Shown here piece by piece: positions 3,269 through 19,578 of a DNA stretch of 20,000 nt. The notes beneath the pieces are model-generated. The model saw nothing but the letters and a program-made list of their open reading frames with translations, had not been told where the DNA came from and did not search any database. Both the position numbers and the translations under genes were made by a program. The DNA comes from an uncultured virus (IMG/VR IMGVR_UViG_3300042294_002722) (lineage: Duplodnaviria; Heunggongvirae; Uroviricota; Caudoviricetes). Numbering within the stretch: position 1 is the stretch's first letter; every line of letters begins with the position of its first letter. The stretch lies in the IMG/VR virus record IMGVR_UViG_3300042294_002722. The stretch is one strand, 5' to 3'.

Positions 3269-3269
3269 A

Positions 3270-3476
3270 ATGCGAGATACTGGAGCAACTACTAAATCAG
3301 AGTATGTTCTGAGGTACGGAGTGCATGAAATTGACGAAGATGTGGCAAATGCTATGTTTGTAGCCACGAATGCTGATCCAGGGTCCAATGAGAAGATAGA
3401 GATCATGGCAAAGCGATTTGAATTGGGCCAGCCCATTTTTCATCCGGACGACAAGACTTACGGAAACCAAGCATGA
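3270..3476 (+). CDS. Small hypothetical protein with T-x-A-x-PGS-x-EKI...R...G-x-P-x-F/W-HP-x-D motif
   Basis: Tightly packed ORF (1 nt after the previous stop; ATGA overlap with the next gene); contains ATNADPGSNEKIEIMAKRFELGQPIFHPDD. Confidence 0.75.
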   Translation: MRDTGATTKSEYVLRYGVHEIDEDVANAMFVATNADPGSNEKIEIMAKRFELGQPIFHPDDKTYGNQA

Positions 3477-4231
3477 AATTCCTTTGCCTGACTCCTCTGT
3501 ATAACCATCATCAACGGCTTACTCAGAACGTGTACCAAGCACTCGTTGACCAGACCCACGGTGACTGGGTTTGGGTGCTAGGAGATGACAGGCCGTGGGA
3601 ATCGCAATTACCGGGACTTCTTGAACCAGACCCCCGAGTTGTAATAAAGCGATTCCACACCAGATGCGAAAGCATGGGCGAGAAGTACACGGCTATGGTC
3701 GCACACGCAGAAGAACAAGGCATCCAGTGGGATGCGATTGCCATCATGGACGGCGATGACATGTTCATGCCAAAGCACCTTGAGAAACACGCGGAGGCAC
3801 TTTCCTGGGGCCTCTACAGCCGTCCTAGCGTAGTGCTTACAGCGATGACCGGGATTGTGCAAGTGGAGTCCTCGACAGGCCGGTTCTGGAGTTCTGTAGC
3901 GTTTACTCGTAAAGGGTTAGAAAGAGTGGGCGGTTTTGGGGACTCTAAGTTTGTCGGATTTGACCAGGAGATGCTGAAAAAATTCAAAATGCTCTGCGGG
4001 GAAACCGACCACGAAACACCGACTTACGTTTATCGGTGGGCTGATACGGCGAGCGACCATGCTTCCGGACACAGTTCTGGATTTGCCTGCACTGAGTGGT
4101 GGGGCAAAGTTCCTGTGATGCCAGGAGAAGGGCTTCTGTATCCTAGGTACGACGATGCTACGGACATTTTTATCATTCCTGGGGCTGAGGCAGTCTATGC
4201 AAAACGAAAAGAATCTGGGCTTTCGTATTAG
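3473..4231 (+). CDS. Glycosyltransferase, GT-A fold (GT2-like)
   Basis: N-terminal LCLTPLYN strand, LVDQTHGDWVWVLGDD, DxD-type IAIMDGDDMF, GLERVGGF and GFDQEM, matching the GT2 motif order. Confidence 0.85.
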   Translation: MKFLCLTPLYNHHQRLTQNVYQALVDQTHGDWVWVLGDDRPWESQLPGLLEPDPRVVIKRFHTRCESMGEKYTAMVAHAEEQGIQWDAIAIMDGDDMFMPKHLEKHAEALSWGLYSRPSVVLTAMTGIVQVESSTGRFWSSVAFTRKGLERVGGFGDSKFVGFDQEMLKKFKMLCGETDHETPTYVYRWADTASDHASGHSSGFACTEWWGKVPVMPGEGLLYPRYDDATDIFIIPGAEAVYAKRKESGLSY

Positions 4232-4910
4232 TAAATCGGAATACATAGATGTAAATGCTATCTATGAACTGCATCACGGTAATCTAGGGGATCACTGGAC
4301 TTCATACAGCCTTATGGCCCTTCTGGGGTTACGCTTTGACCTTCCAAAGGGGTTCACCTACAAGCTGGGTACTTTGAACGGGGGGATGGATTACACAGGC
4401 AGATTGCAAGAGATCGATGCCCTTTTCTCAGAATTTGAGTACCGGCCCCAGCTAGTTCGGGAACAGGGAACAGTCAAAGTCGATCCCTGGTTGAACTGGT
4501 CTACCCCGCCGCTGATGGTTGATAAGAGATTCCGGTGGTCCCTGCAAAAATGCGAGCCGTATTTCTGCTACCAGTTTGACGGTCTATCGGCTGCTGAGAG
4601 CAAGAACCCGCCCCCTAGTTTGATTTTTGCAGTCAAGCAATCCCTAAAATCCAAAGGGTATCGTTCCGTTAGGCTAGGGTCGCATGTTACTTTGCAGGAG
4701 TCTGCCGAGTTGCTTTCCCGGTGCAGTCTTTTTGTAGGGTGCGATAGCGGGTTCAGCCACATCGCCCACAGTGTTGGATGCCCGGTTTACATGTACGAGG
4801 GCAGTCTGCCGGTGTACACGGCACACCGGCTAAAGCAGAACGACATCTTTAAGAGTCTGCCGGAGTTTGAAATGAAACTCCAGCATTGGCATTCCTTTTT
4901 GACGATTTAG
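4197..4910 (+). CDS. Glycosyltransferase, GT-B fold (GT9/heptosyltransferase-like)
   Basis: Likely start at ATG 4197 (GAGG at 4187-4190). N-terminal GNLGD and C-terminal TLQESAELLSRCSLFVGCDSGFSHIAHSVGCPV match the GT9 DSG..H.A motif. Confidence 0.82.
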   Translation: MQNEKNLGFRISKSEYIDVNAIYELHHGNLGDHWTSYSLMALLGLRFDLPKGFTYKLGTLNGGMDYTGRLQEIDALFSEFEYRPQLVREQGTVKVDPWLNWSTPPLMVDKRFRWSLQKCEPYFCYQFDGLSAAESKNPPPSLIFAVKQSLKSKGYRSVRLGSHVTLQESAELLSRCSLFVGCDSGFSHIAHSVGCPVYMYEGSLPVYTAHRLKQNDIFKSLPEFEMKLQHWHSFLTI

Positions 4911-4912
4911 GT

Positions 4913-6943
4913 CTACTTGCAAAGACCTTTTTCGATCTTCTTTTCTGCGGCACGGATTGCTCGTAATACCGCCAGCTTGACCACGGGTCGCACATAGAGG
5001 TGGCCCATGTTTCGTTTGTCGGCTTCTTCCTTGAGCCAGTCTAGGATCGTCTCTAACTCTTCGCGGCACTTAGCCGGTCCCCAATCATCCATCACGGCTG
5101 CGCGTGCGTTACAGGAGCAACCAGGGGCCGCCTCGATGCCTATAAGCTTTAGGGTGGCCTTTAGTTCTTGCCCGCAACCGCAAAGTTTTCCTTCGGGATC
5201 GAGCATCCCGGGAAACAGTTTTACGGGGTCTTTGGGCTTGTCACCCGGCAGCCGTGACAGCACCGTCATCCCGTACTGGTTTTTCGCGTGTTCAGCGATG
5301 AACCATTCAGGGTTCTGGTTGATAAATTGTGATATCCCCCAGAACATGCCCTTGCCGCCGCCCTCCCCGTCTACCCCGAAGATCGCGGTATCGTGAATCA
5401 TTATGCGTGAAGACACTTTGGGTGCATACCGAGTCAGTTCTTCCAGAACCCGTTCGCCGCTGTGGACTGTATCCAGGAACAAGAAATCTGTTTCTGGTAT
5501 TTCATCGACCAGCTTAGAATGGTCAAACGGAGCGATACTAAACTCCAGCGGTCGCCCGGAGTGCGTTTTTACCATGTCCTGGAGGATACCGATCAAGCTA
5601 TCCTGTTCTTGTTGGAAACTGACCAAGACGGCAGGCTTGTCGCATCGTTTGTCACACTTGGACTTGTCGCAATTACCTCGGCAAGGGATTTTGCGTCCCA
5701 GTGCCCCTAACAACAGGGCAGTGGACTCTCGCCGTCCGGTGATGTCTACTGCATGGTGCATGTCAATGAGCCACTTCATAAACAGCCCGGCATGCTCGTT
5801 CAGATCGCGAGGGGCCAGGGCTACGAAGTTCACTACATCATTGAGGGTTTCGTAATTCGTGGGCAACGGGAAACCGAGATTGGATGTCGCTGCCGCCGCT
5901 GCCGGTGCGGGACCGTTTGCCCTTGGCCTAGGCTGAAAAGGCTGGAACGCTACGGGATCGCGGGCAATGATGTCAAAGGTCGCTTGTGGGAACTTGACTT
6001 CGTCTACGAAGTGCTTACGCACCTCTTCGGTATCCCAATCCACATCTTTGTACCCGATCAGATAGTTTCTGATCTTGTTTTCCATTGTCAGGGGGTACGG
6101 AACTCCTCCCGGACGACCAAAACGATGCACCCATTTGATAAACGGCAGGCAGTAAGTTGTCCTGCCGTGTTTGCGATACAGGGCGTGATGCAGGATTTCC
6201 TCGCCGCCGAATCCCCGGAAATCGCGGTTAAAGGGAATCCAGTGTTCCTTGCTGGTTACAAATAACCCGAACCCTTGACCGGGAACCTCGAACGGCGGTT
6301 CGTCGTTGGTCATACCCATGACTTTGTAGCCGCGATCCACCAACTGTTGTTCATGACCGGGCCAAGGAATCTCGGTAGGAGTCCATTCGCCCTTGCTTTC
6401 TACATGCAATTTGCGTAAATGCACACGGTTGTCAAAGTTTTTGCAGACGATAGCCGTCCCATCTGGATGCCGCCAAGCCGTGGCCCAAGTCCCGTTCATC
6501 TGGTCTTGAAAGCCGATCTCAAAGTGAGTGGAGACAAAGGAAAGCCCGTCATAAAGCAGCGGGCCGGTAAACAGATTCTTCTGCATCTCGGGAGTAGCTT
6601 CCCGTAGATGCTTCTTGAGCAAGTGAATGCCGTTTGCCTGAACGAAAACGTGAGGGTCCGTGACCATCACAAAATCGCCCTGGGCCTCCTCAATGATCTT
6701 GTTACGGGGTTGCGATGTGCCGCCGATCTCTGTGTACGGGATATATCGGATATTTTCAATGTGAGAAATGCTTTGGATAAAGTCCCGAGTGGCCTGACCT
6801 TCTGGCGAGTCAGGATTGTTGTCCACGATGATGAACTCGCAGTCCCGGGTATCCTGGTACATGCGATGTGCTTGGACGGTGAAATAAACACCGTTGAAGT
6901 CATTGTAAGTGGCGCAACCAATGGTTAGAAAAGGCTTGCTCAT
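4913..6943 (-). CDS. Fusion: GT2-like glycosyltransferase, class I SAM methyltransferase-like domain (Methyltransf_24-like) and C-terminal Cys-containing helical domain
   Basis: GT2 motifs LTIGCATYND, EFIIVDNN, SQPRN, GDFVMVTDPHV and FRGFGGEE; a Pro/Ala linker; then DLNEH...TDFLFLDTVHS...IMIHDT...GMTVLSR (MTase-like); the C-terminus is CGCGQELK...GCSCNARAAVMDDWG..KC. Confidence 0.85.
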   Translation of the reverse strand: MSKPFLTIGCATYNDFNGVYFTVQAHRMYQDTRDCEFIIVDNNPDSPEGQATRDFIQSISHIENIRYIPYTEIGGTSQPRNKIIEEAQGDFVMVTDPHVFVQANGIHLLKKHLREATPEMQKNLFTGPLLYDGLSFVSTHFEIGFQDQMNGTWATAWRHPDGTAIVCKNFDNRVHLRKLHVESKGEWTPTEIPWPGHEQQLVDRGYKVMGMTNDEPPFEVPGQGFGLFVTSKEHWIPFNRDFRGFGGEEILHHALYRKHGRTTYCLPFIKWVHRFGRPGGVPYPLTMENKIRNYLIGYKDVDWDTEEVRKHFVDEVKFPQATFDIIARDPVAFQPFQPRPRANGPAPAAAAATSNLGFPLPTNYETLNDVVNFVALAPRDLNEHAGLFMKWLIDMHHAVDITGRRESTALLLGALGRKIPCRGNCDKSKCDKRCDKPAVLVSFQQEQDSLIGILQDMVKTHSGRPLEFSIAPFDHSKLVDEIPETDFLFLDTVHSGERVLEELTRYAPKVSSRIMIHDTAIFGVDGEGGGKGMFWGISQFINQNPEWFIAEHAKNQYGMTVLSRLPGDKPKDPVKLFPGMLDPEGKLCGCGQELKATLKLIGIEAAPGCSCNARAAVMDDWGPAKCREELETILDWLKEEADKRNMGHLYVRPVVKLAVLRAIRAAEKKIEKGLCK

Positions 6944-6974
6944 AAAAATCCCTGTAAAACGTGTCCCGCTAAGA

Positions 6975-7012: not shown

Positions 7013-7026
7013 ATCTACCGAATAAC

Positions 7027-10000
7027 TCATTCTGGGGCCATTGTTGGGCCTGCCGTGGTCGCTGGTGCTTCCGTAGTTGTTGTGGTTGTCGGGGCTGCCG
7101 TGGTTGTCGGGGCTGCCGTGGTTGTTGGGGCTGCCGTGGTTGTTGGGGCTGCCGTGGTTGTTGGGGCTGCCGTGGTTGTTGGGGCTGCCGTGGTTGTTGG
7201 GGCTGCCGTGGTTGTTGGGGAGCCTAATTCTTCTGGGGGGACATTAGTAGTCACAGGAGGAATTTGAGTAGTCGTGCCCCCACAGAAAGGTGGATTACCA
7301 GATAAGCAAGTAACGCCGGTGTTCCAACTGCACGAGACTTGATTGTTTGAGTAGCTTATACAGGTTTCCAGCGCCACGCCATTTGTGCAACTATAAGACA
7401 CAGGAAACACATTTGCATTAACACAGCAACAAGCACCTAGTAGTATAGTGGTTGTTGTGGTGCTAGTGGTAGTGAATCCGCAAGCGGCTAATGGGTTTGG
7501 TCCGCAGGTAGCGTTGGCTGTCCAAGACCCTCCGATTTCGGTACAGAATGACTGAGAGTAGCCCTCTCCGCATCCTCCTCCCCAAGGACTAGGCGGTACG
7601 CAGCAACGGCCTAAAGGAGTTCCTGTTGTGGTTGTTGTTGGACACGGGTTAGGAGAACATACACTGCCCGCACCCTGGAATGAACCGCCAGAATTGACGC
7701 ATGAGTCTCGGGAACCGACAGTACAGGTTCCTCCCGGCCAGCAGCAGGCTCCAGGACCAATGGTCGTGGTGCTTGTGGTAGTCCCCGTGCCAGTGGTTGT
7801 ACTGGTCGAAGTGCGAGTAGGTACAATCTCTCCGCACTGAAAATCGATCATATCACAATCAGACAGGCTTTGTGCTAATGGTGCGCCCGGACAAGGACAA
7901 GTGGTAGGGCAGTTATCAATAAATTTATTCCAACCACCATAACCGTTGCCCTTATAAGTGCATTTTCGTTGACAGCTTGTGGTGTTACAACATGCGCACT
8001 CTGCATAACCTGATCCGCAACTTGTTTGAATGATCTGGCATACATTAGTCGGAGGGTCAGACGGTACGGAGCATCGACAATTTGCAAAACTAGAAACTAG
8101 ACTATTATCGCATCCCGGGGGGCCAAGTTTACAGCAGTCGCCGTGTCCTTCACCTAAATACACATAGCATGGTATCTCTTGCCATATATACTCAGTACCC
8201 GGGAAGTTAAATACTGAATAAAAAATGCAAGTACCGGAACAGCTACTACAAGGAGGACGCGGGCTAGTAGTAGGAGGCAAACCACAAGGAACCGAATAAG
8301 TATCCCCGCAACTTGCATTAGGTGGAAATGTCCCGGCGCAGAGATTGCCACCGACCATGACGCAATCGGTGGGGCTGGGCGTGCCACCAGGCCCCCAGGC
8401 ATAAGGAGGCAACGTACAGTGGCAACTATTAAGAGCATTCTCACACCTCTCCGTCATCTGCCACTGGTTAAGTGACGATGAAATCGGCACGCTTACATAT
8501 GTCCATGTACATTGTCCGCAAGGCGCGGATGTAGTAGTTGTGCCTGTTCCAGTGGTAGATGTAGAACTGGTACAAATGCACCATTTTCGCCCGTCAAAAC
8601 AAGTCGGTATCTCTGGTTCCGGAGTGGTCGCTGGACATTCTAACTCCGTACCTGCGCCTCCTGGAACGCACTCAGTTCTCACACACATCCCTGCTACATC
8701 AGGACAACGTACAGGCGGCCTGCAACCGCAAGGCGCGATTGTCGTAGTGGTTGTCGTAAAAGTAGTAGTAGGGGCCGGGGTGGTTTCAGTTAAATCTTCT
8801 TCGTACATCTCGCGCCATGCTGGCGCAAAATTGCACAGGTTACAGTCGTAGCCCGGAACACAAGGGGTTTCCCACTTCCATAACCTAGAGCCAGATTCGG
8901 CATAGTCCAGTCTGCCATGCCTGCGCCCCCAGCTAGCAAATCGTTCTCCCTCTACCCACAATACGCCATATCCCCAGTCTGGGTCATTCGGTGCGTCATC
9001 TATCAACCAGTTTCGCATACTGATCCACCAAGAGGTGTCCATTGGCAGCATACGAGGAGGGGGCAACTTTGGCCGAGTTCCTGGAGGGCATGACTGGCAT
9101 ATTGACCAGTTAGGTGCGTACCACGCTAAGGGATTGCGGTCAGGCGGGTCAGAAACAGTGTTCAAACTGTCCTGAAATCCTGGTAGTTGCAACCCTTGAA
9201 TCTCCCATCCATCCTCCTCAGCATATAAAAACGCATTACTCAGTGGTCTTGGTCCCGGATTCAGATCGAATCGTAGAAAGTCCGCAGACTCTAGGGCGTT
9301 TTGCCAGTTTGTTTGAAGATTGTCCCAGTTGAATGCCCTGTAGACCGCTTTACCTACTGGGTAATCACCGGGCAAAGGCAAATCAGAGGAACATGGGTCG
9401 TACACACAGCTAGTCTGATGGTAAACCGCTGTCGCATTTTCGCTAGGCAAAACAGGAGGTTTTGCACCGATGGGGTACAACGGTCTGTAGCCCGGGTCAC
9501 ATTCTTTGCAAACCTGCCACGGTCCTAGGCCGCCTTGCAGCCTAGCAGCGCGAAATGTATTTGCAGGAATACTTGCTGTAGGGGCAAACTTATTAACTTG
9601 GAAACAGGGATTCTGGCGATTGCTAGGCGACTCTGTCGTCGTTGTCGTACTGGTCGTAGTAACCATGAAAATACAACGACTCTCAATGTACGCATTCAAA
9701 GTGAAGCAGGGATCGCCCTGCCCGTAGCAAGTGCAAGGAGATGAGCATCCATCTGCTCCTGGGTTCTCTAACTGATAAGTCAACCCGGTAGAAGGAGCAG
9801 GGGGCCATGCACCTGAGGTCGTAGTTACGGCTACGCATTTAAGTTTGCAGGTAGGTTTTGCGGATAGACAAGGGGCAGCAGTTGTGCTGGTTGCCGTAGT
9901 AGTGGTAGTTGTTCCAGTTGTGGTAGGGCCGATTGTCGTAGGTGGGGGTGCGGCGGTCGTGGTTGTTGTACTTGTAGTAGTTCTGTTCTCGCACCCGCCT

Positions 10001-10548
10001 ACCGGCCCTTCCCAAGCAAGGCCGGAGTTCGCAGTCCATAAACAGTATCCCTGGCAAGGAAGATTCACAGGACTTGGGGTAGTGCTGGTAGTTGTGCCTG
10101 TAGTGGTTGTGGATTTTAATCCGAGCCAAATCCTTGATTGCTCAATATCGCCTTTGTCTACTACCCAAGTCCCGTTCTTATGTTTTGTGATTTTTACCAG
10201 ATGGTTGACTGTCCACCCGGTTTCGTTGTAGACTATGGCTCTGGTAGGGATTCCCACGCCATCTAACAACTGAATGATACGCTTGCTTTCGCGGTCATAC
10301 TTAAACAGACAGCACTTTGCAGCCCCGAAGGAGTCGCTACTAGAGTCGTACCCATCTCTAAGATACCCCGCCGGAATACCTGTCTCACAAGGCGGTAAAG
10401 CGAAGTAGGTATCTGCTGCACTAAACAAATGCCCTGCTTTCGGCGCAATCATAGACGCAGGCGGCGCGCTTTCAGCGGCCCCTAAAACGCGCCCTAAGCG
10501 CTTGCGGTCGGCATCAGATAGAAAATAACCTTTGTGGTTGCCTAGCAT
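7027..10548 (-). CDS. Large Cys-rich, Thr-rich mucin-like protein; probable tail fibre/adhesin
   Basis: 1173 aa, in the position after tape measure and tail-tip genes; about 80 Cys (manual count) in modules separated by about 10 poly-Thr/Pro linkers; three G[A/R]CC modules; C-terminal (PTTTAA)7. Confidence 0.75.
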   Translation of the reverse strand: MLGNHKGYFLSDADRKRLGRVLGAAESAPPASMIAPKAGHLFSAADTYFALPPCETGIPAGYLRDGYDSSSDSFGAAKCCLFKYDRESKRIIQLLDGVGIPTRAIVYNETGWTVNHLVKITKHKNGTWVVDKGDIEQSRIWLGLKSTTTTGTTTSTTPSPVNLPCQGYCLWTANSGLAWEGPVGGCENRTTTSTTTTTAAPPPTTIGPTTTGTTTTTTATSTTAAPCLSAKPTCKLKCVAVTTTSGAWPPAPSTGLTYQLENPGADGCSSPCTCYGQGDPCFTLNAYIESRCIFMVTTTSTTTTTESPSNRQNPCFQVNKFAPTASIPANTFRAARLQGGLGPWQVCKECDPGYRPLYPIGAKPPVLPSENATAVYHQTSCVYDPCSSDLPLPGDYPVGKAVYRAFNWDNLQTNWQNALESADFLRFDLNPGPRPLSNAFLYAEEDGWEIQGLQLPGFQDSLNTVSDPPDRNPLAWYAPNWSICQSCPPGTRPKLPPPRMLPMDTSWWISMRNWLIDDAPNDPDWGYGVLWVEGERFASWGRRHGRLDYAESGSRLWKWETPCVPGYDCNLCNFAPAWREMYEEDLTETTPAPTTTFTTTTTTIAPCGCRPPVRCPDVAGMCVRTECVPGGAGTELECPATTPEPEIPTCFDGRKWCICTSSTSTTGTGTTTTSAPCGQCTWTYVSVPISSSLNQWQMTERCENALNSCHCTLPPYAWGPGGTPSPTDCVMVGGNLCAGTFPPNASCGDTYSVPCGLPPTTSPRPPCSSCSGTCIFYSVFNFPGTEYIWQEIPCYVYLGEGHGDCCKLGPPGCDNSLVSSFANCRCSVPSDPPTNVCQIIQTSCGSGYAECACCNTTSCQRKCTYKGNGYGGWNKFIDNCPTTCPCPGAPLAQSLSDCDMIDFQCGEIVPTRTSTSTTTGTGTTTSTTTIGPGACCWPGGTCTVGSRDSCVNSGGSFQGAGSVCSPNPCPTTTTTGTPLGRCCVPPSPWGGGCGEGYSQSFCTEIGGSWTANATCGPNPLAACGFTTTSTTTTTILLGACCCVNANVFPVSYSCTNGVALETCISYSNNQVSCSWNTGVTCLSGNPPFCGGTTTQIPPVTTNVPPEELGSPTTTAAPTTTAAPTTTAAPTTTAAPTTTAAPTTTAAPTTTAAPTTTTTTEAPATTAGPTMAPE
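7082..7220. repeat. 18-bp tandem repeat (7 full copies plus partial flanks) encoding PTTTAA
   Basis: Unit GGGGCTGCCGTGGTTGT[C/T] at 7091, 7109, 7127, 7145, 7163, 7181 and 7199; six copies are identical and one differs by a single base. Confidence 0.97.
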
Positions 10549-10985
10549 GGGAAAGCGGTCATGTGCAGAATAGCGGTTGCTTTGGTGGCTTTAACAGTAA
10601 TAACCCCAGGAAACTCCCCGAACAACATCCTACCGGGCCTGAGGATTGCATGCAACTTTCCATCGAGGTAGACTTCGATAACATTGCCCTTTTGCTGTTC
10701 GGCCATCAGGGGATCGCTACCTAGGATTTCCAGTTCTTTGTGCCCCAGGAAAATTTCAAAACTTCCTTCGGGCAGTAGCAGTTTCTGTTCCTTGGCGGGA
10801 TTTACTCGGATATCAGACTGGATCGCGGAGTCAACCGATGGGCGTAGTCGGTCGTAGGCCCATCTAGAATTGACCATATTCCCCGTACCCCACTCCAAAT
10901 AAGTCCCCTGGAAAACTGCTGTAAATCGGTCTTCTTCTTTAGGTTCACCTACCGTCTTGACTATTTCTTCGTTCGACTTTAGCAT
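10542..10985 (-). CDS. Hypothetical tail-region protein (beta-rich)
   Basis: 147-aa ORF overlapping both neighbours in the structural operon; no recognisable motif. Confidence 0.7.
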   Translation of the reverse strand: MLKSNEEIVKTVGEPKEEDRFTAVFQGTYLEWGTGNMVNSRWAYDRLRPSVDSAIQSDIRVNPAKEQKLLLPEGSFEIFLGHKELEILGSDPLMAEQQKGNVIEVYLDGKLHAILRPGRMLFGEFPGVITVKATKATAILHMTAFPC

Positions 10986-11920
10986 TAGATTAGCACCGTT
11001 GGGATTCCTAAGAGTAAGAGATTTGCTTGCTTTGCAATCTGAACTGTTTGAATAAACGTGTTACCAGGAATCGGAACTCCTAGTATACCTACGTCATCAG
11101 GGGTAGCAGGTCTGCCGATATAATCCAAAAACACAGGAGGCATGTTCTCGCCGTTATCGTCTTTGGGGATTTCGTAAGACCCCGGCAGAAACGGAATAGC
11201 ACCGTTTTTTAGCCTAGCCAGACCGTATGACGGTATCTTCTTATCAAAGGTATCCAGATTGCACTCAAACGTGTATTGTATCTTGTAGTAGTAAAAACAT
11301 GTACCGTACAGAACTCTCTCAAACCGGCAGTCTGTAAATCGGACACACCTTGCCGGAAACCCCCACAAAGGCGCATCGTTGACTCTGTTAATCAGTAAGT
11401 TGAAGGTAGACGCTGGTAAGACAGCACTGTTGAAACTGATACTGATGGACGGATAGCTTACCTTTTCTTCGACCTCCGGTCCAAGAATAGGCTCCAGATT
11501 CGAGTGCCGAAGTGCCCTTCCAAACCGGTCAGTCTTCATTTCCCGGGAGACATGCACAAAATCCCCAGACAGTGTGTACGGTTCTAATAGCGGGTTTTCG
11601 ATCTGTGTCGAGTTACACCGCTGCATGGGCCTAGTGGTGTACTCATTCGTGATTTGCCAAGACTGCACTACGTCCCCGTCGCTGTATCCCGGGTGAGGTG
11701 CGATAGCTAACCGTGGGGTACAGAATGCCCAAGGATCGTAGTCGTTGTCTATGCTGTATACAGAACCCGTAGGCAGCACTGTATTGACAGCTTGTAGCAC
11801 TGTCTCTGGGCCGTCTAGCGGACTGTCCGTATTGAATATCCAAGTGCATTCGTAAGTTCGATGCCCCTCTTCATCACGGGACATTGATACGTTTTTTAGA
11901 CCTCTCAAAACGGCTGTCAT
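10985..11920 (-). CDS. Putative tail tip/distal tail protein
   Basis: 311 aa, ATGA-coupled to the tape measure stop and beta-strand-rich; function inferred from synteny only. Confidence 0.65.
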   Translation of the reverse strand: MTAVLRGLKNVSMSRDEEGHRTYECTWIFNTDSPLDGPETVLQAVNTVLPTGSVYSIDNDYDPWAFCTPRLAIAPHPGYSDGDVVQSWQITNEYTTRPMQRCNSTQIENPLLEPYTLSGDFVHVSREMKTDRFGRALRHSNLEPILGPEVEEKVSYPSISISFNSAVLPASTFNLLINRVNDAPLWGFPARCVRFTDCRFERVLYGTCFYYYKIQYTFECNLDTFDKKIPSYGLARLKNGAIPFLPGSYEIPKDDNGENMPPVFLDYIGRPATPDDVGILGVPIPGNTFIQTVQIAKQANLLLLGIPTVLI

Positions 11921-14900
11921 GGCGCACCTACGGCATTTAAGTTTGCAGGGCTGATGGTATTGTTTGCATCGGGTGGAGTGGCCCCGCCGCCAGTCAAAGC
12001 CCCAAGAATCTTGAGAAGAATGTTGTTAGCAGTCAACTGGGCGCTGAGTTGTGGGTTAGCCCCTGCGCCTTCGGCTTTTACCCGAGAGGCGTATTCTGCC
12101 ATCTTTGCTCGATAAGAGCCGCTTTCATAGGTAAAAGCCGTAAGGTCTTCTACTCCTCTACCCCTACCTTTGCCTTTGGCTCCAGGACCGCCTTCTAATC
12201 CGCTAAAATCAAAGTCCTTAAACGCCGGAGGGATAGGCATCCCAGGAGGCAGTTCTGCTGGTTTGCCTTCGGGGATTGTCAGATTGAGTGCGGGCATCTC
12301 AATGCCTAGAGCTTTAAGACGATCTGCTGCATTCCCCATTCCTTCTAATCCAGACTTTAGCCTGTCCAGAACACTTGCACCTATGTTGGCGGCTTCTTGG
12401 CCTAGATTAACGCCTTCTTTTGCACCGGGGACATTGCTACCAGGGGGCATGAACATACGGCTACGGGGAACGTAAGACCATTCGCCCTTTGCTTCCATCT
12501 GGTCAAGTATTCGACTTGCTTCTGCTCGTCCACGGCTACGGGGAGTGGTATCTAAACCTTCTTTCCTGGCTATTTCAAGCACTTTTTCGTTGCGCTGCCT
12601 GTTATACTCATCTCTTTCTAATCCTTGCTCAGCAATCCACATAGGAATGCTTGCCGCCATGCTTGCAAGCGTTCCTTGCGGACCTCCCATTGCGTTTACG
12701 CCCGTTGCAGCCATTGCCATCCCGCGTTCTTGGGTAGCACCAAACCCTCCTGCCACCGCCGCCGTTATTTCTTTTATGATGCCAGGGAGGTTGGCTTTTA
12801 ACCAGTGAAACGAGGCTACGATCAATTTGACCATAGCTTCTGCAAGCACCCCTATGTTGTGCAGCAACGCTTTAAGCATAGAGTTCATTGTCTCACCCAA
12901 AAACTGAGAAAGCTCTTTCCAGTTTTTGCGAATCCAATCCGTGAGGATTTGGAAGTTTTCTTGGAAGTTTGCAAAGAACCCTTTGGAAAATAATGAGAGT
13001 CTGTTAAGGTCTTCTTGAATCTGTCTTAATGCTCCGCTTAGGCCACCAGCACCCTTGATATAGTCCCGTACTAGGGCCACACCCATACCTACTGCCCCAA
13101 ACGCCGCCGCAATCTGTAATAGACCGCCTATGGAACTAATCAGCCCCATAACATTCAAAGTCACTATTGAGCTTAACACACTGCCTAGTGTCATAAACAC
13201 ACCAACAAGTGAGGTCAATACGCTGTAAAGCGGGCTAGTAAGCATTTTGAATATGGAGAACAAAGTGGATACTTTGTTAAGATTCCATGCTATAACAGCT
13301 ACTGCTAATCCTAGTGCATTAAATGCCGCTAGTAACAGAAAAGCATTCTTCGCGGTTTCTGCTATCTGTTTTACCAGTTTCGGATTCTTCTCGATCCACT
13401 CCTCTAGGCGATTAAGGTACTCTAGCGTTCTCCTAGCAAGATTCTTCAAGTCTTCTTCAAGTATCGTGTAAATTTTCAAAAGAATCGATGTTTGAAAAGT
13501 TTCACGAATTCGATTCATTAAACCACCGAGTTCATTACTCATGCGGTTCATTGTACCTGCAAAGTGGCCGCCTTCGGATGTTTCGATTCTCAAAGCATCA
13601 ATGACATGCTTTGAAGTAATCAAACCTTTCTCTTTAGCTTCAAACAGTTCTGACATGCGCTCTTCGAGCGTCTGCATAGGTTTCAGCGTGCGCTCTGCAA
13701 TGGTCTTTAGGGGGTTAAACCCTTGCTCAGTAAGCTGCCGCAGTTCGTTCCCTTGGAGTTTACCGAGGGATACGATTTGCGACATAGCATAGGCAAGAAG
13801 ACCGAACCGCCTAGAGTTACCGCCAGCGATGTCCCCTAGACTTTTCATCAAGTCCATTGTTTGCTCTGCGCTCACACCGTAAGCCATCATATTTCTGGCT
13901 TCTTCGGCAAGGTCAGTAAACATATAAGGAGACTGAATAGCAAAATCGCGGATGTCTTTCATCACTGCGTCAGCTTTTTCCGCAGAGCCTACAAAGACTT
14001 CGATGGCTACCGAGTTCTCACGGAACGATGTTCCAATTTCAAGCAAAGAGTTTGCCGTCCTTGCGAGATTTTTCAAGGCATTCATGTGCATGTAGATGTC
14101 TGCACGCTCGGTAAGCCCTTGCCCGAATCCACCTTGCCCGAATCCACCTTGCCGAAAGCCTCCACCCCCACCACCGCTGCTATTGAAGTTTATAGTCGGT
14201 CTTTTAGAGGTATAAAACCGACTAGCCATTCTTCTTTGGTGTATTTCATTGGCTATGCGCAGTCTCTGCTGGTGTGCCTGTTCGGCTCTCCTATTTCTAT
14301 CTTGGTTTATGAGTTGCTGGTTTTGGTGTCTTTGGTTATCTCTGATCGTTCTTTGTTGAATCGATCTTGCTCTTGCGGCTGCGGTAGTAGCGGCTGTTTG
14401 TATGGTAGCAGCAGCCCGGGCTGCTGCTACCGTTGCCTTCGCTGCCGCCGTAGCCGCAGCAACAGTACGCTTGGCGGCGACAGAGGCGGCGGCTTTTTGC
14501 TGTGTGGCAGCAACGCTTGCTGCCGCTTTTGCCTGTGTAGCATTTGTTCTGGCTGTTATAAGCCCCGCTGTGAGTATTGTTTTTATTTTCGTAGCTGCAA
14601 GAGAAGCAGCCGTCTTCATCTGTGTAGCCGCTTGCCGTGCCTGGGTAGCTGAAACCCTGGCTGCGGATTCGGTCTGGATTGCAGCAACTCTAGCAGCGTT
14701 TTTAGTTTGTGTAGCTGCTACTGATGCCGCAGTCTTAGCCTGCGTAGCAGCGACGGCAGCGGCAGCCTTGGTTTTTGTGGCGGCGACCACGGCAGCAGCC
14801 TTAGTTTTTGTGGCGGCGGCTTTTGCTGCTGCTTCTGTTTTTGTGGCAGCAGCGGTTGCAGCGGCCTCTGTTTTAATAGCCGCAGCTTTGGCTGCGGCTT

Positions 14901-15387
14901 TAGTTTTTGTGGCAGCAGCGGTTGCAGCGGCTCTGGTTTTTGCGGCAGCGACTCTGGCTGCCGATTCAGTCTTTAGCGAAGCAACGGTAGCGGCGGCTTT
15001 CTGTCTATTGCCCGCTGCGTCTGCGGCAGCTATAGTCGCCTTAGCAGCAGCATTTGCAGCGGCCTCTATTTTCTTTGCTTCGTTTTTCCCCTTCGCCAAT
15101 AGCATGGCAGCTTGAGTTGATGCACGGGCAATCTTAGCAGCCGCATTTGCGGCTTGTGTTGTTGCCCCGCCGCGAGAAAACAACCCACGAAGAGATGCTA
15201 TGGCCCCAGCTATGCTACCGAAAAAACCTGTCTTAGGGACAGTAGAGGCTGCGGATAGCCTAGAAATTCTCTGAAGAGTCTTTTCTAGCTTCTCAGCTTT
15301 TCTGATGGACTCATCCATCATTTTGCTGTAGTGCTTATTATCACCCTGTAGCTTCACATACAGGGGAGGTAGCTGCCTAGTTGACAT
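11917..15387 (-). CDS. Tail tape measure protein
   Basis: 1156 aa after the frameshifted chaperone; conserved TMP block FAIQSPYMFTDL...MAYGVSAEQ...LGDIAGG....LAYAMSQI...GKLQGNELRQLTEQGFNPL; hydrophobic central segments; Ala-rich repeats. Confidence 0.93.
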   Translation of the reverse strand: MSTRQLPPLYVKLQGDNKHYSKMMDESIRKAEKLEKTLQRISRLSAASTVPKTGFFGSIAGAIASLRGLFSRGGATTQAANAAAKIARASTQAAMLLAKGKNEAKKIEAAANAAAKATIAAADAAGNRQKAAATVASLKTESAARVAAAKTRAAATAAATKTKAAAKAAAIKTEAAATAAATKTEAAAKAAATKTKAAAVVAATKTKAAAAVAATQAKTAASVAATQTKNAARVAAIQTESAARVSATQARQAATQMKTAASLAATKIKTILTAGLITARTNATQAKAAASVAATQQKAAASVAAKRTVAAATAAAKATVAAARAAATIQTAATTAAARARSIQQRTIRDNQRHQNQQLINQDRNRRAEQAHQQRLRIANEIHQRRMASRFYTSKRPTINFNSSGGGGGGFRQGGFGQGGFGQGLTERADIYMHMNALKNLARTANSLLEIGTSFRENSVAIEVFVGSAEKADAVMKDIRDFAIQSPYMFTDLAEEARNMMAYGVSAEQTMDLMKSLGDIAGGNSRRFGLLAYAMSQIVSLGKLQGNELRQLTEQGFNPLKTIAERTLKPMQTLEERMSELFEAKEKGLITSKHVIDALRIETSEGGHFAGTMNRMSNELGGLMNRIRETFQTSILLKIYTILEEDLKNLARRTLEYLNRLEEWIEKNPKLVKQIAETAKNAFLLLAAFNALGLAVAVIAWNLNKVSTLFSIFKMLTSPLYSVLTSLVGVFMTLGSVLSSIVTLNVMGLISSIGGLLQIAAAFGAVGMGVALVRDYIKGAGGLSGALRQIQEDLNRLSLFSKGFFANFQENFQILTDWIRKNWKELSQFLGETMNSMLKALLHNIGVLAEAMVKLIVASFHWLKANLPGIIKEITAAVAGGFGATQERGMAMAATGVNAMGGPQGTLASMAASIPMWIAEQGLERDEYNRQRNEKVLEIARKEGLDTTPRSRGRAEASRILDQMEAKGEWSYVPRSRMFMPPGSNVPGAKEGVNLGQEAANIGASVLDRLKSGLEGMGNAADRLKALGIEMPALNLTIPEGKPAELPPGMPIPPAFKDFDFSGLEGGPGAKGKGRGRGVEDLTAFTYESGSYRAKMAEYASRVKAEGAGANPQLSAQLTANNILLKILGALTGGGATPPDANNTISPANLNAVGAP
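14368..15165 (-). repeat. Ala/Thr/Lys-rich low-complexity region with 11-aa (33-bp) period in the TMP N-terminus
   Basis: TKTKAAAKAAA / IKTEAAATAAA / TKTEAAAKAAA / TKTKAAAVVAA / TKTKAAAAVAA / TQAKTAASVAA / TQTKNAARVAA / IQTESAARVSA. Confidence 0.9.
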
Positions 15388-16080
15388 CGTCAGATTCCTG
15401 CTTCACGCCTAGCATACCTAACCACAAATCGCGTTCTTGTTCCCAAGTTCGTTCTTTTTTCTTCTCGGTTTCGGGTAACTTGAATTCCAGCAAATAATCA
15501 CTGGGTTTCAATTTCTTTGCACCCTGAGACGCAAAAATGGCCCATGTCGTTTGAGCAGCATACCAGTCTGATTTGTCATGCAGCGTCTGCTTCAATCGGA
15601 AGTAAGACTGCCACTTTTCAAATTCAGACACCGTGGTAAGTTGCTTAACCAGCGACACGGGCCATTTAAGCTCGAAAGCGAGTTCGTACCAAAGAAACTC
15701 CTCGCTTTCGAGAGTTAGTTTTTTTCGGCGTTCTCTTCTGCTTCTTCGCTCTTTTTCAGCCCGTTCAATACGCTAGCCGCGTCAAACAAAACACGTTGCG
15801 CCGAATCCGGCCAAGCCTGAATGGATGCCTCGGGAACCAGTTTCCCGTCCGCATCGTACAGGCAGAACGACAACAGGGTGCTGTACATACCCTTGTAATC
15901 GTTCATCCCGACGACTTCGCCGGTGTTTGGATCAACTTTGAGCTTCTTGTTGGTCGTCGCCAGAAACTCATCCCGCTGTGCCCCAGTCATTTCTTTGATG
16001 TAGAACTGACTTACCCCAGACTCAGACTCCAGGGAAACAGGAATAGACTTACGAATGACAGAAACAGAAATCATATACAA
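15377..16080 (-). CDS. Tail assembly chaperone, -1 frameshifted long form (gpGT-like, about 234 aa)
   Basis: A -1 slip at GAA AAA AAC continues ...EK(K/N)LTLESEEFLWYELAFELKWPVSLVKQLTTVSEFEKWQSYF without a stop into ORF 15377..15658. Confidence 0.85.
15671..15724 (-). promoter_or_regulatory. Programmed -1 ribosomal frameshift signal: A AAA AAC heptamer plus downstream 12-bp stem-loop
   Basis: Heptamer at 15724-15718, 5-nt spacer, then CTCGAAAGCGAG (15712-15701), an 18-nt loop and CTCGCTTTCGAG (15682-15671), a perfect 12-bp stem. Confidence 0.88.
15715..16080 (-). CDS. Tail assembly chaperone (gpG-like, short form)
   Basis: 121 aa between the tail tube and TMP genes; contains YIKEMTGAQRDEF and CLYDADGKLV, and ends in EKN-stop at the slippery site. 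Confidence 0.88.
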   Translation of the reverse strand: MYMISVSVIRKSIPVSLESESGVSQFYIKEMTGAQRDEFLATTNKKLKVDPNTGEVVGMNDYKGMYSTLLSFCLYDADGKLVPEASIQAWPDSAQRVLFDAASVLNGLKKSEEAEENAEKN

Positions 16081-16091
16081 CCCTCTGCGAA

Positions 16092-16118
16092 TCAGGCGGC
16101 CCTTAGCAGGCCGCCTGA
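16092..16118 (-). terminator. GC-rich hairpin between tail tube and chaperone genes (weak terminator or mRNA stabiliser)
   Basis: TCAGGCGGCC (16092-16101) / GGCCGCCTGA (16109-16118), a 10-bp stem with a 7-nt loop; there is no good U-tract on the minus strand. Confidence 0.55.
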
Positions 16119-16149
16119 GTAAACGTGGAAAACAAACCTACTAGATGGA

Positions 16150-16611
16150 TCACGGACCAGCGGTCGTGGTGGTCGTAGCCGTGGTTCCGGTAGCAAAGAC
16201 CGGAGCGGTTTCGACCGGCGTTGCTGCCGTGGACATATTGCTTGGAACCAGTTCCAACGTGCCTTCTGGCCGTTCGCCTTCCTTGAAGGAATCGAAGGTG
16301 AAGGAGTTGATGATGGCATAGAATACCAGGGTAGACCCGTCCGGGAACGTAATGGTAACGTGCCGGTTGGTTCCGAGGAACTGGTGCATCTGTGCAATGA
16401 CCTTGGGGTCAAATGCGACTTTGATCGATACGGGTTCGAGCGTAATCAGGGCCTTACCGAGCATCGTTCGGTAACGGCTGTTACGCATCGTGGTTTGGTC
16501 GATCCCGCCACCGGAATTCATCGACGGTGGGGTTACTTCGATTTCCTCGAATTGGCCGCTGATCCCGTTGATCGCGATCAGGATTTTGAAACCGTCCTTC
16601 AAGTTAGGCAT
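16150..16611 (-). CDS. Major tail tube protein with Thr-rich C-terminal extension
   Basis: 153 aa upstream of the chaperone; IEVTPPSMNSGGGIDQTTM...ITFPDGSTLVFYAIINSF resembles siphovirus tube proteins; ends in ATGTTATTTTTAGP. Confidence 0.85.
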   Translation of the reverse strand: MPNLKDGFKILIAINGISGQFEEIEVTPPSMNSGGGIDQTTMRNSRYRTMLGKALITLEPVSIKVAFDPKVIAQMHQFLGTNRHVTITFPDGSTLVFYAIINSFTFDSFKEGERPEGTLELVPSNMSTAATPVETAPVFATGTTATTTTTAGP

Positions 16612-16617
16612 GGAAAA

Positions 16618-19576: not shown

Positions 19577-19578
19577 GA

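What the first reader, a model, noticed from the sequence alone, without database searches (positions are those of the whole stretch)
3473..16611. Candidate phage virion O-glycosylation system: three glycosyltransferases and a methyltransferase next to mucin-like structural proteins
Seen: GT2-like (3473-4231), GT9-like (4197-4910) and GT2-MTase fusion (4913-6943) genes cluster at the junction of two converging operons. The fusion directly follows a 1173-aa protein full of poly-Thr tracts, and the tail tube protein also ends in a Thr run. Established: some mycobacteriophages (e.g. Che8) use their own glycosyltransferases to O-glycosylate capsid and tail tube subunits, and Thr/Pro-rich tracts are typical O-glycan acceptors. 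Inference: this phage builds a multi-sugar, possibly O-methyl-capped glycan on mucin-like virion proteins, for shielding, stiffening linkers or adhesion. Alternatives are host-surface modification (superinfection exclusion) or DNA hypermodification.
Basis: partly seen in the sequence, partly recalled or inferred. Interest (0 to 1): 0.9.

Follow-up and report, generated by a model that had tools for sequence, protein, structure and literature searches.

The report
Phage mucin-like tail tip with sugar-adding enzymes
An uncultured tailed phage encodes a tail-tip protein full of threonine runs and, right after it, an enzyme shaped like the animal enzymes that start mucin sugar coats, so it probably sugar-coats its own tail, though no sugar has been measured.

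Summary
The window is the tail and replication end of a 42.7-kb uncultured siphophage.

New here: the fusion's first domain is a soluble GT-A enzyme whose predicted fold is closest to polypeptide GalNAc-transferases (GT27). It has the D-x-H metal motif that a GT-A survey assigns to the two polypeptide Ser/Thr O-glycosylating families. Its second domain has the fold of cation-dependent O-methyltransferases.

In 35 of 40 distinct viral lineages carrying this enzyme, a poly-Thr ORF lies just upstream on the same strand (background 11 of 609 ORFs). Among relatives sharing the tail module, enzyme and poly-Thr tail protein appear and vanish together (13/2/1/8 clusters). A Thr tag on the tube occurs only where the enzyme is present (14 of 21 against 0 of 7).

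Virion O-glycosylation is the best reading (about 0.65). Host-surface and DNA modification are weaker. No chemistry exists.

It is a new variant of a known kind (mycobacteriophage virion glycosylation). Earlier notes of this scan describe the same enzyme-tract pairing on other DNA. Relatives sit in Planctomycetota prophages.

The parts
7027..10548 (-). 1173-aa tail-tip protein. It has a conserved N-terminal part (residues 1 to about 440), then small Cys-rich modules separated by 11 Thr-rich linkers. This is the proposed main sugar acceptor.
   Evidence: Translation, Thr-run and Cys counts. It is the last gene of the tail block, after the tape measure, orf311 and orf147. Many Cys positions and several Thr-tract positions are invariant in 25 relatives. 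No Pfam, PHROG or NCBIfam hit, and no named relative.
7082..7220 (-). 18-nt tandem repeat, 7.7 copies, encoding the C-terminal (PTTTAA)n tract.
   Evidence: Tandem Repeats Finder: 99% matches, score 264. Translation.
5939..6943 (-). Residues 1-335 of the fusion: a soluble GT-A glycosyltransferase domain like polypeptide GalNAc-transferases, with D96-x-H98, F-G-G-E-E (245-249) and H273. Proposed initiating enzyme.
5228..5881 (-). Residues 355-572 of the fusion: a class I, cation-dependent-type O-methyltransferase fold. In this clade it carries a Cys-rich insertion (C-x4-C-x4-C-x3-C).
4916..5218 (-). Residues 576-676 of the fusion: a Cys-bearing helical end module of unknown role. It recurs alone or fused to other enzymes in relatives.
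   Evidence: Invariant Cys columns. Stand-alone and re-fused copies. No Pfam hit for the window's copy. The variant form in distant relatives hits DUF6171 (E 3.5e-7 and 4.3e-4).
3473..4231 (+). 252-aa GT-A (GT2-like) glycosyltransferase with a conserved D-D-D motif. Proposed chain-extending enzyme.
   Evidence: In many relatives it lies directly after the fusion on the same strand (for example L083, L084, L098, L100).
4197..4910 (+). 237-aa short GT9-like protein. Only the nucleotide-sugar-binding half of a GT-B enzyme is recognisable. Proposed accessory transferase.
   Evidence: Pfam GT9 above the cut-off; 18 of 19 relatives match. Weak profile matches to GT9 3tov (E 0.0079), WaaF (E 0.036) and TibC (E 0.084). 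Present only in the nearest lineages and in L086, where it directly follows the fusion.
16150..16611 (-). 153-aa tail tube protein, assigned by gene order.
   Evidence: It lies between the terminator (Pfam PF12691) and the G/T chaperones. Of 28 aligned sequences, 2 hit phrog_158 and 1 hits phrog_4574, both 'major tail protein' families.
16153..16191 (-). C-terminal tag TGTTATTTTTAGP of the tube protein. Proposed second acceptor.
   Evidence: The alignment shows it is appended after the conserved end of the tube core. It is present in 14 of 21 sequences from enzyme-bearing lineages and 0 of 7 from lineages without the enzyme.
10542..11920 (-). orf147 and orf311: tail-tip or baseplate genes between the tape measure and the poly-Thr protein. 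orf311 served as the anchor for the comparative test.
   Evidence: Gene order. No family hits. Conserved in relatives.
11917..16080 (-). Tape measure protein (11917-15387) and the tail chaperones T-like (15377-15658) and G-like (15715-16080). They fix the block as a siphophage tail module.
   Evidence: Pfam TMP_3 E 1.3e-23 and Phage_tail_T E 2.6e-10. PHROG tape measure and tail assembly chaperone.

Best explanation
This is a phage-encoded system that O-glycosylates the phage's own tail proteins in the infected cell's cytoplasm.

Proposed steps:
1. The first domain of the 676-aa fusion is a soluble, metal-dependent GT-A transferase of the polypeptide-GalNAc-transferase type. It puts a first sugar from a host nucleotide-sugar onto Thr hydroxyls. 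The acceptors are the poly-Thr linkers of the 1173-aa tail-tip protein and the Thr tag at the end of the tube protein.
2. The small GT2-like enzyme, and in this lineage the short GT9-like enzyme, extend the glycan.
3. The fused O-methyltransferase-fold domain may cap a sugar hydroxyl.
4. The result would be mucin-like, stiff, protease-resistant and hydrated linkers between the small Cys-rich modules of the tail tip, and a sugar fringe along the tube.

Shown: the genes, the folds, the motifs and the conserved linkage.
Inferred: the acceptor, the donor sugar, the order of steps, methylation, and any effect on the virion.

For: 2. Motifs. D-x-H is kept in 102 of 103 relatives that cover the site. 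H273 is kept in 104 of 104. F-G-G-E-E is kept in about 105 of 107. Passages of PMC7185993 say that D-x-H in place of D-x-D is confined to GT27 and GT60, that both families O-glycosylate polypeptide Ser/Thr, and that these two group with GT7 and the chondroitin-polymerase type.

3. Linkage. The 80 viral loci kept of 491 confirmed fall into 45 lineages at 80% identity. Of these, 40 have at least 2 kb upstream. In 35 of the 40, a Thr-rich ORF lies on the same strand and ends within 2.6 kb upstream. That is 36 of 77 nearby ORFs against 11 of 609 others (Fisher p 7e-29, not corrected for relatedness). The pairing holds where no other gene is recognisably shared and in Planctomycetota prophages.

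4. Joint gain and loss. Among 24 orf311-anchored clusters with at least 6 kb downstream, 13 have both traits, 8 have neither, 2 have the enzyme only and 1 has tracts only (p 5e-4).

5. Tube tag. It is present in 14 of 21 enzyme-bearing sequences and 0 of 7 without the enzyme. A tag at a protein's end cannot be a linker.

6. The other enzymes travel with the fusion. The GT2-like gene directly follows it on the same strand in many lineages, and the GT9-like gene does so in L086.

7. All three enzymes lack a membrane-type hydrophobic segment (highest 19-residue Kyte-Doolittle mean below 1.0).

8. Precedent. Mycobacteriophages glycosylate the C-termini of capsid and tube subunits with their own transferases. 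I know this only from passages citing Freeman et al. 2023 in PMC12619734 and PMC12363180.
Against: - No glycan, glycopeptide or enzyme activity has been measured for any member.
- Five of 40 lineages have the enzyme without a nearby Thr-rich ORF: L052, L056 (eight loci), L060, L064 and L080. So do several genome copies: the Schlesneria loci L087, L089, L093 and L101, plus L091, L095 and L107.
- L146 has the enzyme but no poly-Thr tail ORF, though its tube ends in a short Thr run.
- The lineages that carry both traits are mostly each other's closest kin, so the number of independent events is smaller than the counts suggest.
- Assigning H273 as the metal-binding C-terminal His rests on position, not on a residue-level superposition.
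- The methyltransferase domain's glycine-rich loop is replaced by T-G-R-R-E-S-T in this clade, so it may not bind SAM.
- The 1173-aa protein is called a virion protein from gene order alone.
- The capsid protein has no Thr tag.
- The GT2-like and GT9-like genes end the replication operon, which also holds a dNMP kinase and a 5'-nucleotidase.
Confidence: 0.65

Rival explanations
1. Host-surface modification. The transferases are accessory ('moron') genes that change host envelope glycoproteins or polysaccharides, for superinfection exclusion or lysogenic conversion. On this reading the poly-Thr tracts are only flexible linkers of a receptor-binding protein.
For: - The genes sit at the very end of the tail block, a usual place for accessory genes. 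In two prophages an integrase lies a few kb away (L104, L086).
- Chromosomal copies in Schlesneria and others lack a poly-Thr neighbour, so the enzyme family also has other acceptors.
- Relatives of the tail module swap in quite different glycan gene sets at this spot, as host-range or conversion islands do.
Against: - None of the three enzymes has a membrane-type segment, and no flippase-like gene was found.
- The enzyme is tied to the poly-Thr gene, not to integrases. This holds in 35 of 40 lineages, including contigs with no integrase in view.
- The Thr tag on the tube protein has no linker role and appears only with the enzyme.
- The tract type changes together with the enzyme set in relatives.
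Confidence: 0.17
2. DNA hypermodification. Some or all of the transferases glycosylate modified bases of the phage DNA to evade restriction.
For: - The GT2-like and GT9-like genes are the last genes of the replication and recombination operon.
- That operon also has a T4-gp1-type dNMP kinase (Pfam DNMK, E 5.4e-11) and an NT5C-type 5'-nucleotidase (E 3.6e-8). Such genes often accompany modified nucleotides; that association is from my own knowledge.
- Phage transferases that glycosylate DNA are known (passage in PMC12619734 citing Pyle et al. 2024).
Against: - No thymidylate-synthase or hydroxymethylase-family gene (PF00303) was found in the three relatives that are at least 90% complete (0 of 3). 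One of five records searched has one. None appeared among the 27 ORFs of the window's own record that I scanned, but that record is only 53% complete.
- In other lineages the GT2-like gene sits directly behind the fusion and the poly-Thr gene, not in the replication block.
- The fusion's fold and D-x-H motif point to a polypeptide acceptor.
Confidence: 0.08
3. The enzymes modify the tail-tip protein, but the fused second domain is not an active methyltransferase. It, or the Cys end module, serves as a substrate-binding or docking domain, as the lectin domain does in animal GalNAc-transferases. This is a variant of the main reading.
For: - The glycine-rich SAM loop is replaced in the window's clade, while distant members keep E-x-G-x-x-x-G-x-S.
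- The Pfam methyltransferase matches are below the cut-off.
- The end module recurs alone or fused to unrelated enzymes at the same genomic spot.
Against: - The D-x-x-H and H-D-T segments are conserved.
- At least 150 distinct 50%-identity clusters keep the two-domain form.
Confidence: 0.1

Closest known systems
Mycobacteriophage virion glycosylation (Che8, Corndog, Myrna; Freeman et al. 2023, Cell Host Microbe). Seen here only as citing passages in PMC12619734 and PMC12363180; the paper itself was not held.
   Same: Phage-encoded transferases lie beside structural genes. A C-terminal tag on the tube subunit is the presumed acceptor. The enzymes are soluble and would act in the cytoplasm on virion subunits.
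   Different: - The enzymes are not close relatives. The Che8 transferase appears only at rank 43 of the viral fold search (TM 0.20/0.33, rmsd 18.6).
- tblastn of the fusion against 50,697 GenBank phage records found nothing, even at E up to 1 for the GT domain.
- The main acceptor here is a poly-Thr, Cys-rich tail-tip protein, not the capsid, which has no tag.
- There is a fused O-methyltransferase-fold domain.
- The likely hosts of relatives are Planctomycetota, not Actinomycetota.
Eukaryotic UDP-GalNAc:polypeptide N-acetylgalactosaminyltransferases (CAZy GT27; for example human GalNAc-T2 2ffu/4d0z, T. gondii GalNAc-T3 8ui6)
   Different: - Sequence identity in the structural alignments is 12-16%.
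- There is no sequence-level match.
- There is no membrane anchor.
- There is no ricin-type lectin domain. Its place is taken by an O-methyltransferase fold and a Cys module.
- It is prokaryotic-viral and cytoplasmic rather than Golgi-resident.
Cation-dependent class I O-methyltransferases, including sugar O-methyltransferases (MeT1 6g80, MycF 4xvz, SpnH 4cdz) and the Pfam CmcI/rhamnosyl O-methyltransferase family
   Different: The glycine-rich SAM loop is replaced in this clade, and a Cys-rich insertion is present. The Pfam match is below the cut-off. The domain is fused behind a glycosyltransferase.
Autotransporter O-heptosyltransferases TibC/AAH and LPS heptosyltransferases (GT9)
   Same: The 237-aa protein matches the GT9 nucleotide-sugar-binding segment. 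TibC shows that GT9 enzymes can glycosylate protein Ser residues; that point is from my own knowledge.
   Different: Only about 55 residues match. The protein is about two thirds the length of the solved GT9 chains (237 aa against 326-406 aa). The matches cannot tell a protein acceptor from an LPS acceptor.
Earlier notes of this scan on other DNA (e1-5883040, e1-5745829, e1-6038446)
   Same: They report the same pairing of a GalNAc-T-like soluble enzyme with poly-Thr virion proteins in uncultured phages.
   Different: These are unchecked AI notes on other genomes and are not independent evidence. As far as their summaries show, they do not mention the methyltransferase fusion, the two extra transferases, the tube tag, or the joint gain and loss within one tail-module family.

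Membership tests
CAZy GT27 (polypeptide GalNAc-transferase) | GT-A catalytic fold closest to solved GT27 structures | tested here: met
CAZy GT27 (polypeptide GalNAc-transferase) | D-x-H metal motif in place of D-x-D (stated for GT27 and GT60 in PMC7185993) | tested here: met
   D96-P-H98 in the window. D-[C/S/P]-H in 102 of 103 relatives that cover the site.
CAZy GT27 (polypeptide GalNAc-transferase) | C-terminal His that binds the metal | tested here: inconclusive
   H273 is kept in 104 of 104 relatives, and its place in the aligned ranges fits. No residue-level superposition was available.
CAZy GT27 (polypeptide GalNAc-transferase) | Sequence-level family match | tested here: not met
   A profile of 32 members against PDB sequences reached only generic GT2 enzymes and no GT27. 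Pfam Glyco_transf_7C, which I recall as part of the GT27 architecture, matched in only 2 of 32 members.
CAZy GT27 (polypeptide GalNAc-transferase) | C-terminal ricin-type lectin domain and N-terminal membrane anchor | tested here: not met
   No lectin family in Pfam scans. The C-terminal half is an O-methyltransferase fold plus a Cys module. No hydrophobic segment.
CAZy GT27 (polypeptide GalNAc-transferase) | Transfer of GalNAc to Ser/Thr of a polypeptide | not testable with these tools
   This needs an enzyme assay or glycoproteomics.
Phage virion glycosylation system of the Che8 type | Phage-encoded transferases next to structural genes | tested here: met
Phage virion glycosylation system of the Che8 type | C-terminal acceptor tags on tube and capsid subunits | tested here: inconclusive
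   The tube has a Thr tag. The putative capsid protein 18208-19437 has none.
Phage virion glycosylation system of the Che8 type | Transferases homologous to those of Che8, Corndog or Myrna | tested here: not met
   No tblastn match in GenBank phages. The Che8 transferase is only at rank 43 with poor superposition.
Phage virion glycosylation system of the Che8 type | Glycans shown on virion proteins | not testable with these tools
   The phage is uncultured and no data exist.
Class I cation-dependent O-methyltransferase (CmcI / Methyltransf_24 / COMT-like) | Rossmann-type methyltransferase fold | tested here: met
Class I cation-dependent O-methyltransferase (CmcI / Methyltransf_24 / COMT-like) | Pfam family score above the cut-off | tested here: not met
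   CmcI scores 20.9 bits against a cut-off of 23.2. 9 of 32 relatives hit CmcI and 6 of 32 hit Methyltransf_24 at E up to 0.01.
Class I cation-dependent O-methyltransferase (CmcI / Methyltransf_24 / COMT-like) | Glycine-rich SAM-binding loop (motif I) | tested here: not met
   The window's clade has D-I-T-G-R-R-E-S-T. The four most distant aligned members (L043, L046, L051, L038) keep E-F-G-x-R-x-G-V-S-T.
CAZy GT9 (heptosyltransferase family) | Pfam PF01075 above the cut-off | tested here: met
   30.6-30.8 bits against a cut-off of 22; 18 of 19 relatives match.
CAZy GT9 (heptosyltransferase family) | Full two-domain GT-B architecture | tested here: inconclusive
   The protein is 237 aa, against 326-406 aa for the solved GT9 chains listed. 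Only the segment at residues 157-209 matches. No structure was predicted for it.
GT2 (the 252-aa enzyme) | Pfam PF00535 match and D-x-D motif | tested here: met
   The window's protein is below the cut-off (20.9 against 23.3 bits), but 15 of 22 relatives match (best E 3.1e-10). D94 is nearly invariant, and D95 and D96 are invariant.
GtrABC-type serotype-converting glucosylation | Membrane-anchored GtrB-type GT2 with a GtrA flippase and GtrC | tested here: not met
   No hydrophobic segment in any of the three enzymes. No such families among the 22 window ORFs scanned.

The most novel reading that the evidence does not exclude
The polypeptide Ser/Thr O-glycosyltransferase clade with the D-x-H motif (GT27/GT60 type), known from eukaryotes, has a large unannotated branch in phages and Planctomycetota. 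It makes true mucin-type coats on phage tail tips.

On this reading the end of this tail module is a swappable 'glyco-island'. The type of acceptor tract (poly-Thr, (Gly-Thr)n or poly-Ser) changes together with the initiating enzyme set. A shared small Cys module docks whichever enzyme is present onto the tail protein.
Probability: 0.3. Interest if true: 0.85.

Novelty: new variant of a known kind. Interest (0 to 1): 0.72.

Why it matters
Virion glycosylation by phage-encoded enzymes has been shown by experiment only in mycobacteriophages.

If this reading is right, a different and much larger enzyme family does the same job on tail tips. The profile search found 1417 clusters at 50% identity with E up to 1e-30, and 491 viral contigs carry the enzyme. 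The phages are uncultured aquatic ones, and their relatives infect Planctomycetota.

The chemistry would be laid out like animal mucin initiation. That would bear on three questions:
- how phages stiffen and protect receptor-binding fibres;
- where mucin-type O-glycosylation came from;
- whether compact soluble enzymes that glycosylate simple Thr tags could be useful for glyco-engineering in bacteria.

The acceptor tags are short and the enzyme is soluble, so the idea can be tested directly by co-expression.

Tried and rejected
- **GenBank phages.** Near-identity search of the whole window, and tblastn of the fusion and of its GT domain alone (E up to 1), found no match.
- **Single-sequence PDB searches** of the three enzymes gave nothing useful.
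- **Profile of the fusion against PDB sequences** reached only generic GT2 enzymes.
- **Protein Atlas look-up** of the tail-tip N-terminus gave no usable hit.
- **Large protein-database search** with the tail-tip N-terminal 440 residues found 36 relatives, none with a name or a Pfam domain.
- **Freeman et al. 2023** could not be read, as the paper is not held. What I say of it comes from citing passages.
- **Literature searches** found no description of a GalNAc-T-like phage enzyme paired with poly-Thr tail proteins.
- **Complex prediction** of orf311, orf147 and the tail-tip N-terminus was not available. Whether the 1173-aa protein binds the tail tip therefore stays untested.
- **The first, wider orf311 alignment** was too diverse for a locus scan. 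A narrower alignment was used, which biases that sample towards closer kin.
- **Promoter and terminator scans** around the junction were not above shuffled expectation.
- **GtrABC-type conversion** was considered and rejected, because there are no membrane segments.
- **Host of the window's own lineage** is not settled. A 99%-identical 3.3-kb fragment sits in a bin labelled Bacteroidia (L082), while more distant relatives sit in Planctomycetota bins and prophages.


Full report
**What the window is.** Places 1-19984 are the right-hand end of an IMG/VR virus record of 42,745 bases, estimated 53% complete. GC content is about 50% throughout.

The + strand carries the end of a replication and recombination operon: an HNH endonuclease, an SbcC split around SbcD, a small ORF, and then the GT2-like and GT9-like genes. 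Upstream in the record lie an SNF2 helicase, a primase/helicase, DNA polymerase A, a dNMP kinase, a clamp loader, a 5'-nucleotidase, a RecA-like protein and a flap nuclease.

The - strand carries a siphophage structural block. In order of transcription it reads: putative capsid, connector genes, tail terminator, a 153-aa tube protein, G/T-type chaperones, a 1156-aa tape measure, orf311, orf147, the 1173-aa poly-Thr protein and the 676-aa fusion. The two operons meet head-on. The stop codons at 4910 and 4913 are two bases apart.

**The observation.** It is confirmed in every particular.

- The 1173-aa protein has 27 runs of three or more Thr, 15.3% Thr and 83 Cys. It has 11 Thr-rich linkers and a terminal PTTTAA array encoded by 7.7 copies of an 18-nt repeat.
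- No other ORF of 100 aa or more in the record has more than one Thr run.
- The tube protein ends in TGTTATTTTTAGP.
- The N-terminal 440 residues of the big protein are conserved among relatives, while the distal part varies. Many Cys positions are invariant in 25 relatives.

That pattern fits a tail-tip or fibre protein with a conserved anchor and variable distal modules. The assignment still rests on gene order, because no family or named relative was found.

**The enzymes.**

*The fusion.* It was modelled with 32 relatives (pLDDT 88).

- Residues 1-334 are a GT-A domain. Foldseek ranks 1-49 are all polypeptide GalNAc-transferases, best E 3e-13.
- The family keeps D-x-H in 102 of 103 relatives, a later His (H273) in 104 of 104, and F-G-G-E-E in about 105 of 107.
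- A survey of GT-A enzymes says D-x-H in place of D-x-D is confined to GT27 and GT60. It says both glycosylate polypeptide Ser/Thr, and that they group with GT7 and the chondroitin-polymerase type (passages of PMC7185993). That is the same neighbourhood the fold search returns.
- At the sequence level the family is not GT27. The profile reaches only generic GT2 enzymes in the PDB.

*The C-terminal half.* It was modelled alone (pLDDT 91).

- It is an O-methyltransferase fold. Foldseek's best E is 1.6e-6.
- In the window's clade the usual glycine-rich loop reads T-G-R-R-E-S-T, and a Cys-rich insertion is present. Distant members keep the canonical loop. Activity here is therefore open.

*The last 100 residues.* They form a Cys-bearing helical module with no Pfam match.

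*The 252-aa enzyme.* It is a GT2-type GT-A with a D-D-D motif. 15 of 22 relatives hit Pfam GT2.

*The 237-aa protein.* It matches only the nucleotide-sugar-binding segment of GT9. 18 of 19 relatives match.

None of the three has a membrane-type segment.

**The comparative test.**

*Enzyme-anchored sample.* A scan of IMG/VR found 491 contigs encoding a relative of the fusion's GT domain. The best 80 were kept.

- After grouping at 80% identity there are 45 lineages, and 40 of them have at least 2 kb upstream.
- In 35 of the 40, an ORF with at least three Thr runs, or one run of five or more, lies on the same strand and ends within 2.6 kb upstream.
- Among ORFs of 100 aa or more, 36 of 77 in that position are Thr-rich, against 11 of 609 elsewhere. 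Of those 11, six are homologues of the tube (2), terminator (3) or orf311 (1).
- The pairing holds in lineages that share no other recognisable gene with the window.
- The exceptions are L052, L056 (eight loci), L060, L064 and L080.

*Tail-anchored sample.* I then anchored on orf311, which reaches relatives whether or not they have the enzyme.

- Of 33 clusters, 24 have at least 6 kb downstream.
- 13 have both the GalNAc-T-like domain and a Thr-rich tail ORF.
- 8 have neither.
- 2 have the enzyme only. These are L146, and L159, whose 'enzyme' is a 109-aa fragment at the locus edge.
- 1 has tracts only. This is L161, where the ORF lies 8 kb away.
- Fisher p is 5e-4.

*Tube tag.* The tag is appended after the conserved end of the tube core in 14 of 21 sequences from enzyme-bearing lineages, and in 0 of 7 from the others.

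*Caveat.* These tests ignore relatedness. Most lineages with both traits are each other's nearest kin. L150 (both traits) and L146 sit among distant lineages that lack them, which argues for more than one event.

**The 'enzyme-less' relatives are not sugar-less.** After their tail genes they carry other glycan genes: GT1/GT4-like enzymes, Glyco_trans_1_2, GT25, a GT2 plus TOD1/MUCI70 fusion, FkbM and Methyltransf_24 methyltransferases, sulfotransferases, an NAD-dependent epimerase/dehydratase, and radical SAM enzymes.

Their tail-tip ORFs carry (Gly-Thr)n or poly-Ser tracts instead of poly-Thr.

The fusion's Cys end module recurs there too. It stands alone as 85-93-aa ORFs, or is fused to those other enzymes. 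So the end of this tail module looks like a swappable glycan island whose acceptor tract changes with the enzyme set. The sample is small, and I did not test this further.

**Hosts.** A scan of species-representative genomes found 26 loci, most of them in Planctomycetota bins and in one complete Schlesneria chromosome.

Several lie in long contigs beside a tape measure, a major tail protein or an integrase. In these a Thr-rich ORF again sits directly upstream (L086, L096, L104, L099). These are prophages, so Planctomycetota are hosts for that part of the family.

The window's own lineage is not placed. Its only near-identical genome hit is a 3.3-kb contig in a Bacteroidia bin (L082). Some chromosomal copies (the Schlesneria loci L087, L089, L093 and L101, plus L091, L095 and L107) have no poly-Thr neighbour.

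**Rivals.**

*Host-surface modification* fits the position of the genes at the end of the tail block and near integrases. It does not explain the soluble enzymes, the tie to poly-Thr genes, or the tube tag.

*DNA modification* fits the placing of the two small transferases at the end of the replication operon, with a dNMP kinase and a nucleotidase. Against it, 3 of 3 near-complete relatives lack a thymidylate-synthase or hydroxymethylase-type gene. In other lineages the GT2-like gene follows the fusion directly.

**Comparison with what is known.** The working model is that of mycobacteriophage virion glycosylation, which I know only through citing passages.

The enzymes are unrelated to Che8's at any useful level. 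The main acceptor is a tail-tip protein, and the capsid is untagged. The initiating enzyme works like, but is not a sequence member of, GT27.

Six literature searches found no description of this pairing. Earlier notes of this scan describe the same pairing on other DNA. They are unchecked and not independent. I tested the shared claim on my own loci.

The family is large: 1417 clusters at 50% identity with E up to 1e-30. The best 150 are all 494-1018 aa, and nearly all of them span both the GT and the methyltransferase parts.

**Verdict.** The finding is real and its interpretation is supported by comparative and structural inference. It remains untested by chemistry.

Noticed in passing
window 4916-5218 (-); L152:8526-8792, L156:13060-13317, L149:10315-10596, L149:8256-9683, L147:10510-13362: The Cys-bearing last 100 residues of the fusion recur in relatives that lack the GalNAc-T-like domain. 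There the module stands alone as an 85-93-aa ORF, or is fused to other enzymes (GT2 plus TOD1/MUCI70, or a phosphoribosyltransferase). It is always just after the tail genes, so it may be a shared docking module.
   Followed up: partly
L145:9544-17087, L152:7864-15121, L160:11357-16053, L162:8822-14548, L147:10510-15048: Relatives of the same tail module carry different glycan gene sets after the tail genes: GT1-like enzymes, GT25, methyltransferases, sulfotransferases, an epimerase/dehydratase and radical SAM enzymes. Their tail-tip ORFs bear (Gly-Thr)n or poly-Ser tracts instead of poly-Thr.
   Followed up: partly
L022:1518-1943, L025:1976-2407, L028:1187-1624, L030:980-1417, L022:5776-6777, L044:90-1001: In enzyme-bearing relatives other virion proteins also carry terminal Thr tags. 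The terminator and orf311 homologues begin with Met followed closely by 5-9 Thr. A 303-aa ORF ends in TTTTTTTAAP, like the tube tag. The start codons were not checked.
   Followed up: no
window 11917-15387 (-) against L002:2237-5128: A relative that is 95-100% identical in the flanking tail genes has a tape measure of 963 aa at only 48% identity, against 1156 aa here. This is a clean mosaic swap that should change tail length.
   Followed up: no
window 386-3268 (+): SbcC appears split around SbcD. The order is an N-terminal ATPase half (386-1453), SbcD (1426-2343), a 112-aa ORF (2395-2733), and the C-terminal ATPase half (2669-3268). The three SbcC/SbcD pieces are found in the same order in most relatives whose locus reaches that far.
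   Followed up: no
G000:C1:11152-11754 and 16415-16969 (outside the window): The replication operon encodes a T4-gp1-type dNMP kinase and an NT5C-type 5'-nucleotidase. No hydroxymethylase-type gene was seen in the 27 ORFs scanned of this 53%-complete record.
   Followed up: partly
L082 (3276-b contig) against L083-L099: The only near-identical genome hit (99%) is a short contig binned as Bacteroidia, while more distant relatives lie in Planctomycetota bins and prophages. The Bacteroidia placement may be a binning artefact.
   Followed up: no
window 6985-7013 (-) and 4909-4928 (+): A promoter-like site (10 of 12 matches) lies in the 84-nt gap before the fusion gene. A terminator-like hairpin sits exactly at the junction of the converging operons. 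Neither class of site is more frequent than in shuffled sequence.
   Followed up: no
window 5660-5720 (-), about residues 409-428 of the fusion: A Cys-rich insertion (C-x4-C-x4-C-x3-C) interrupts the methyltransferase fold in the window's clade only. Distant members lack it.
   Followed up: no
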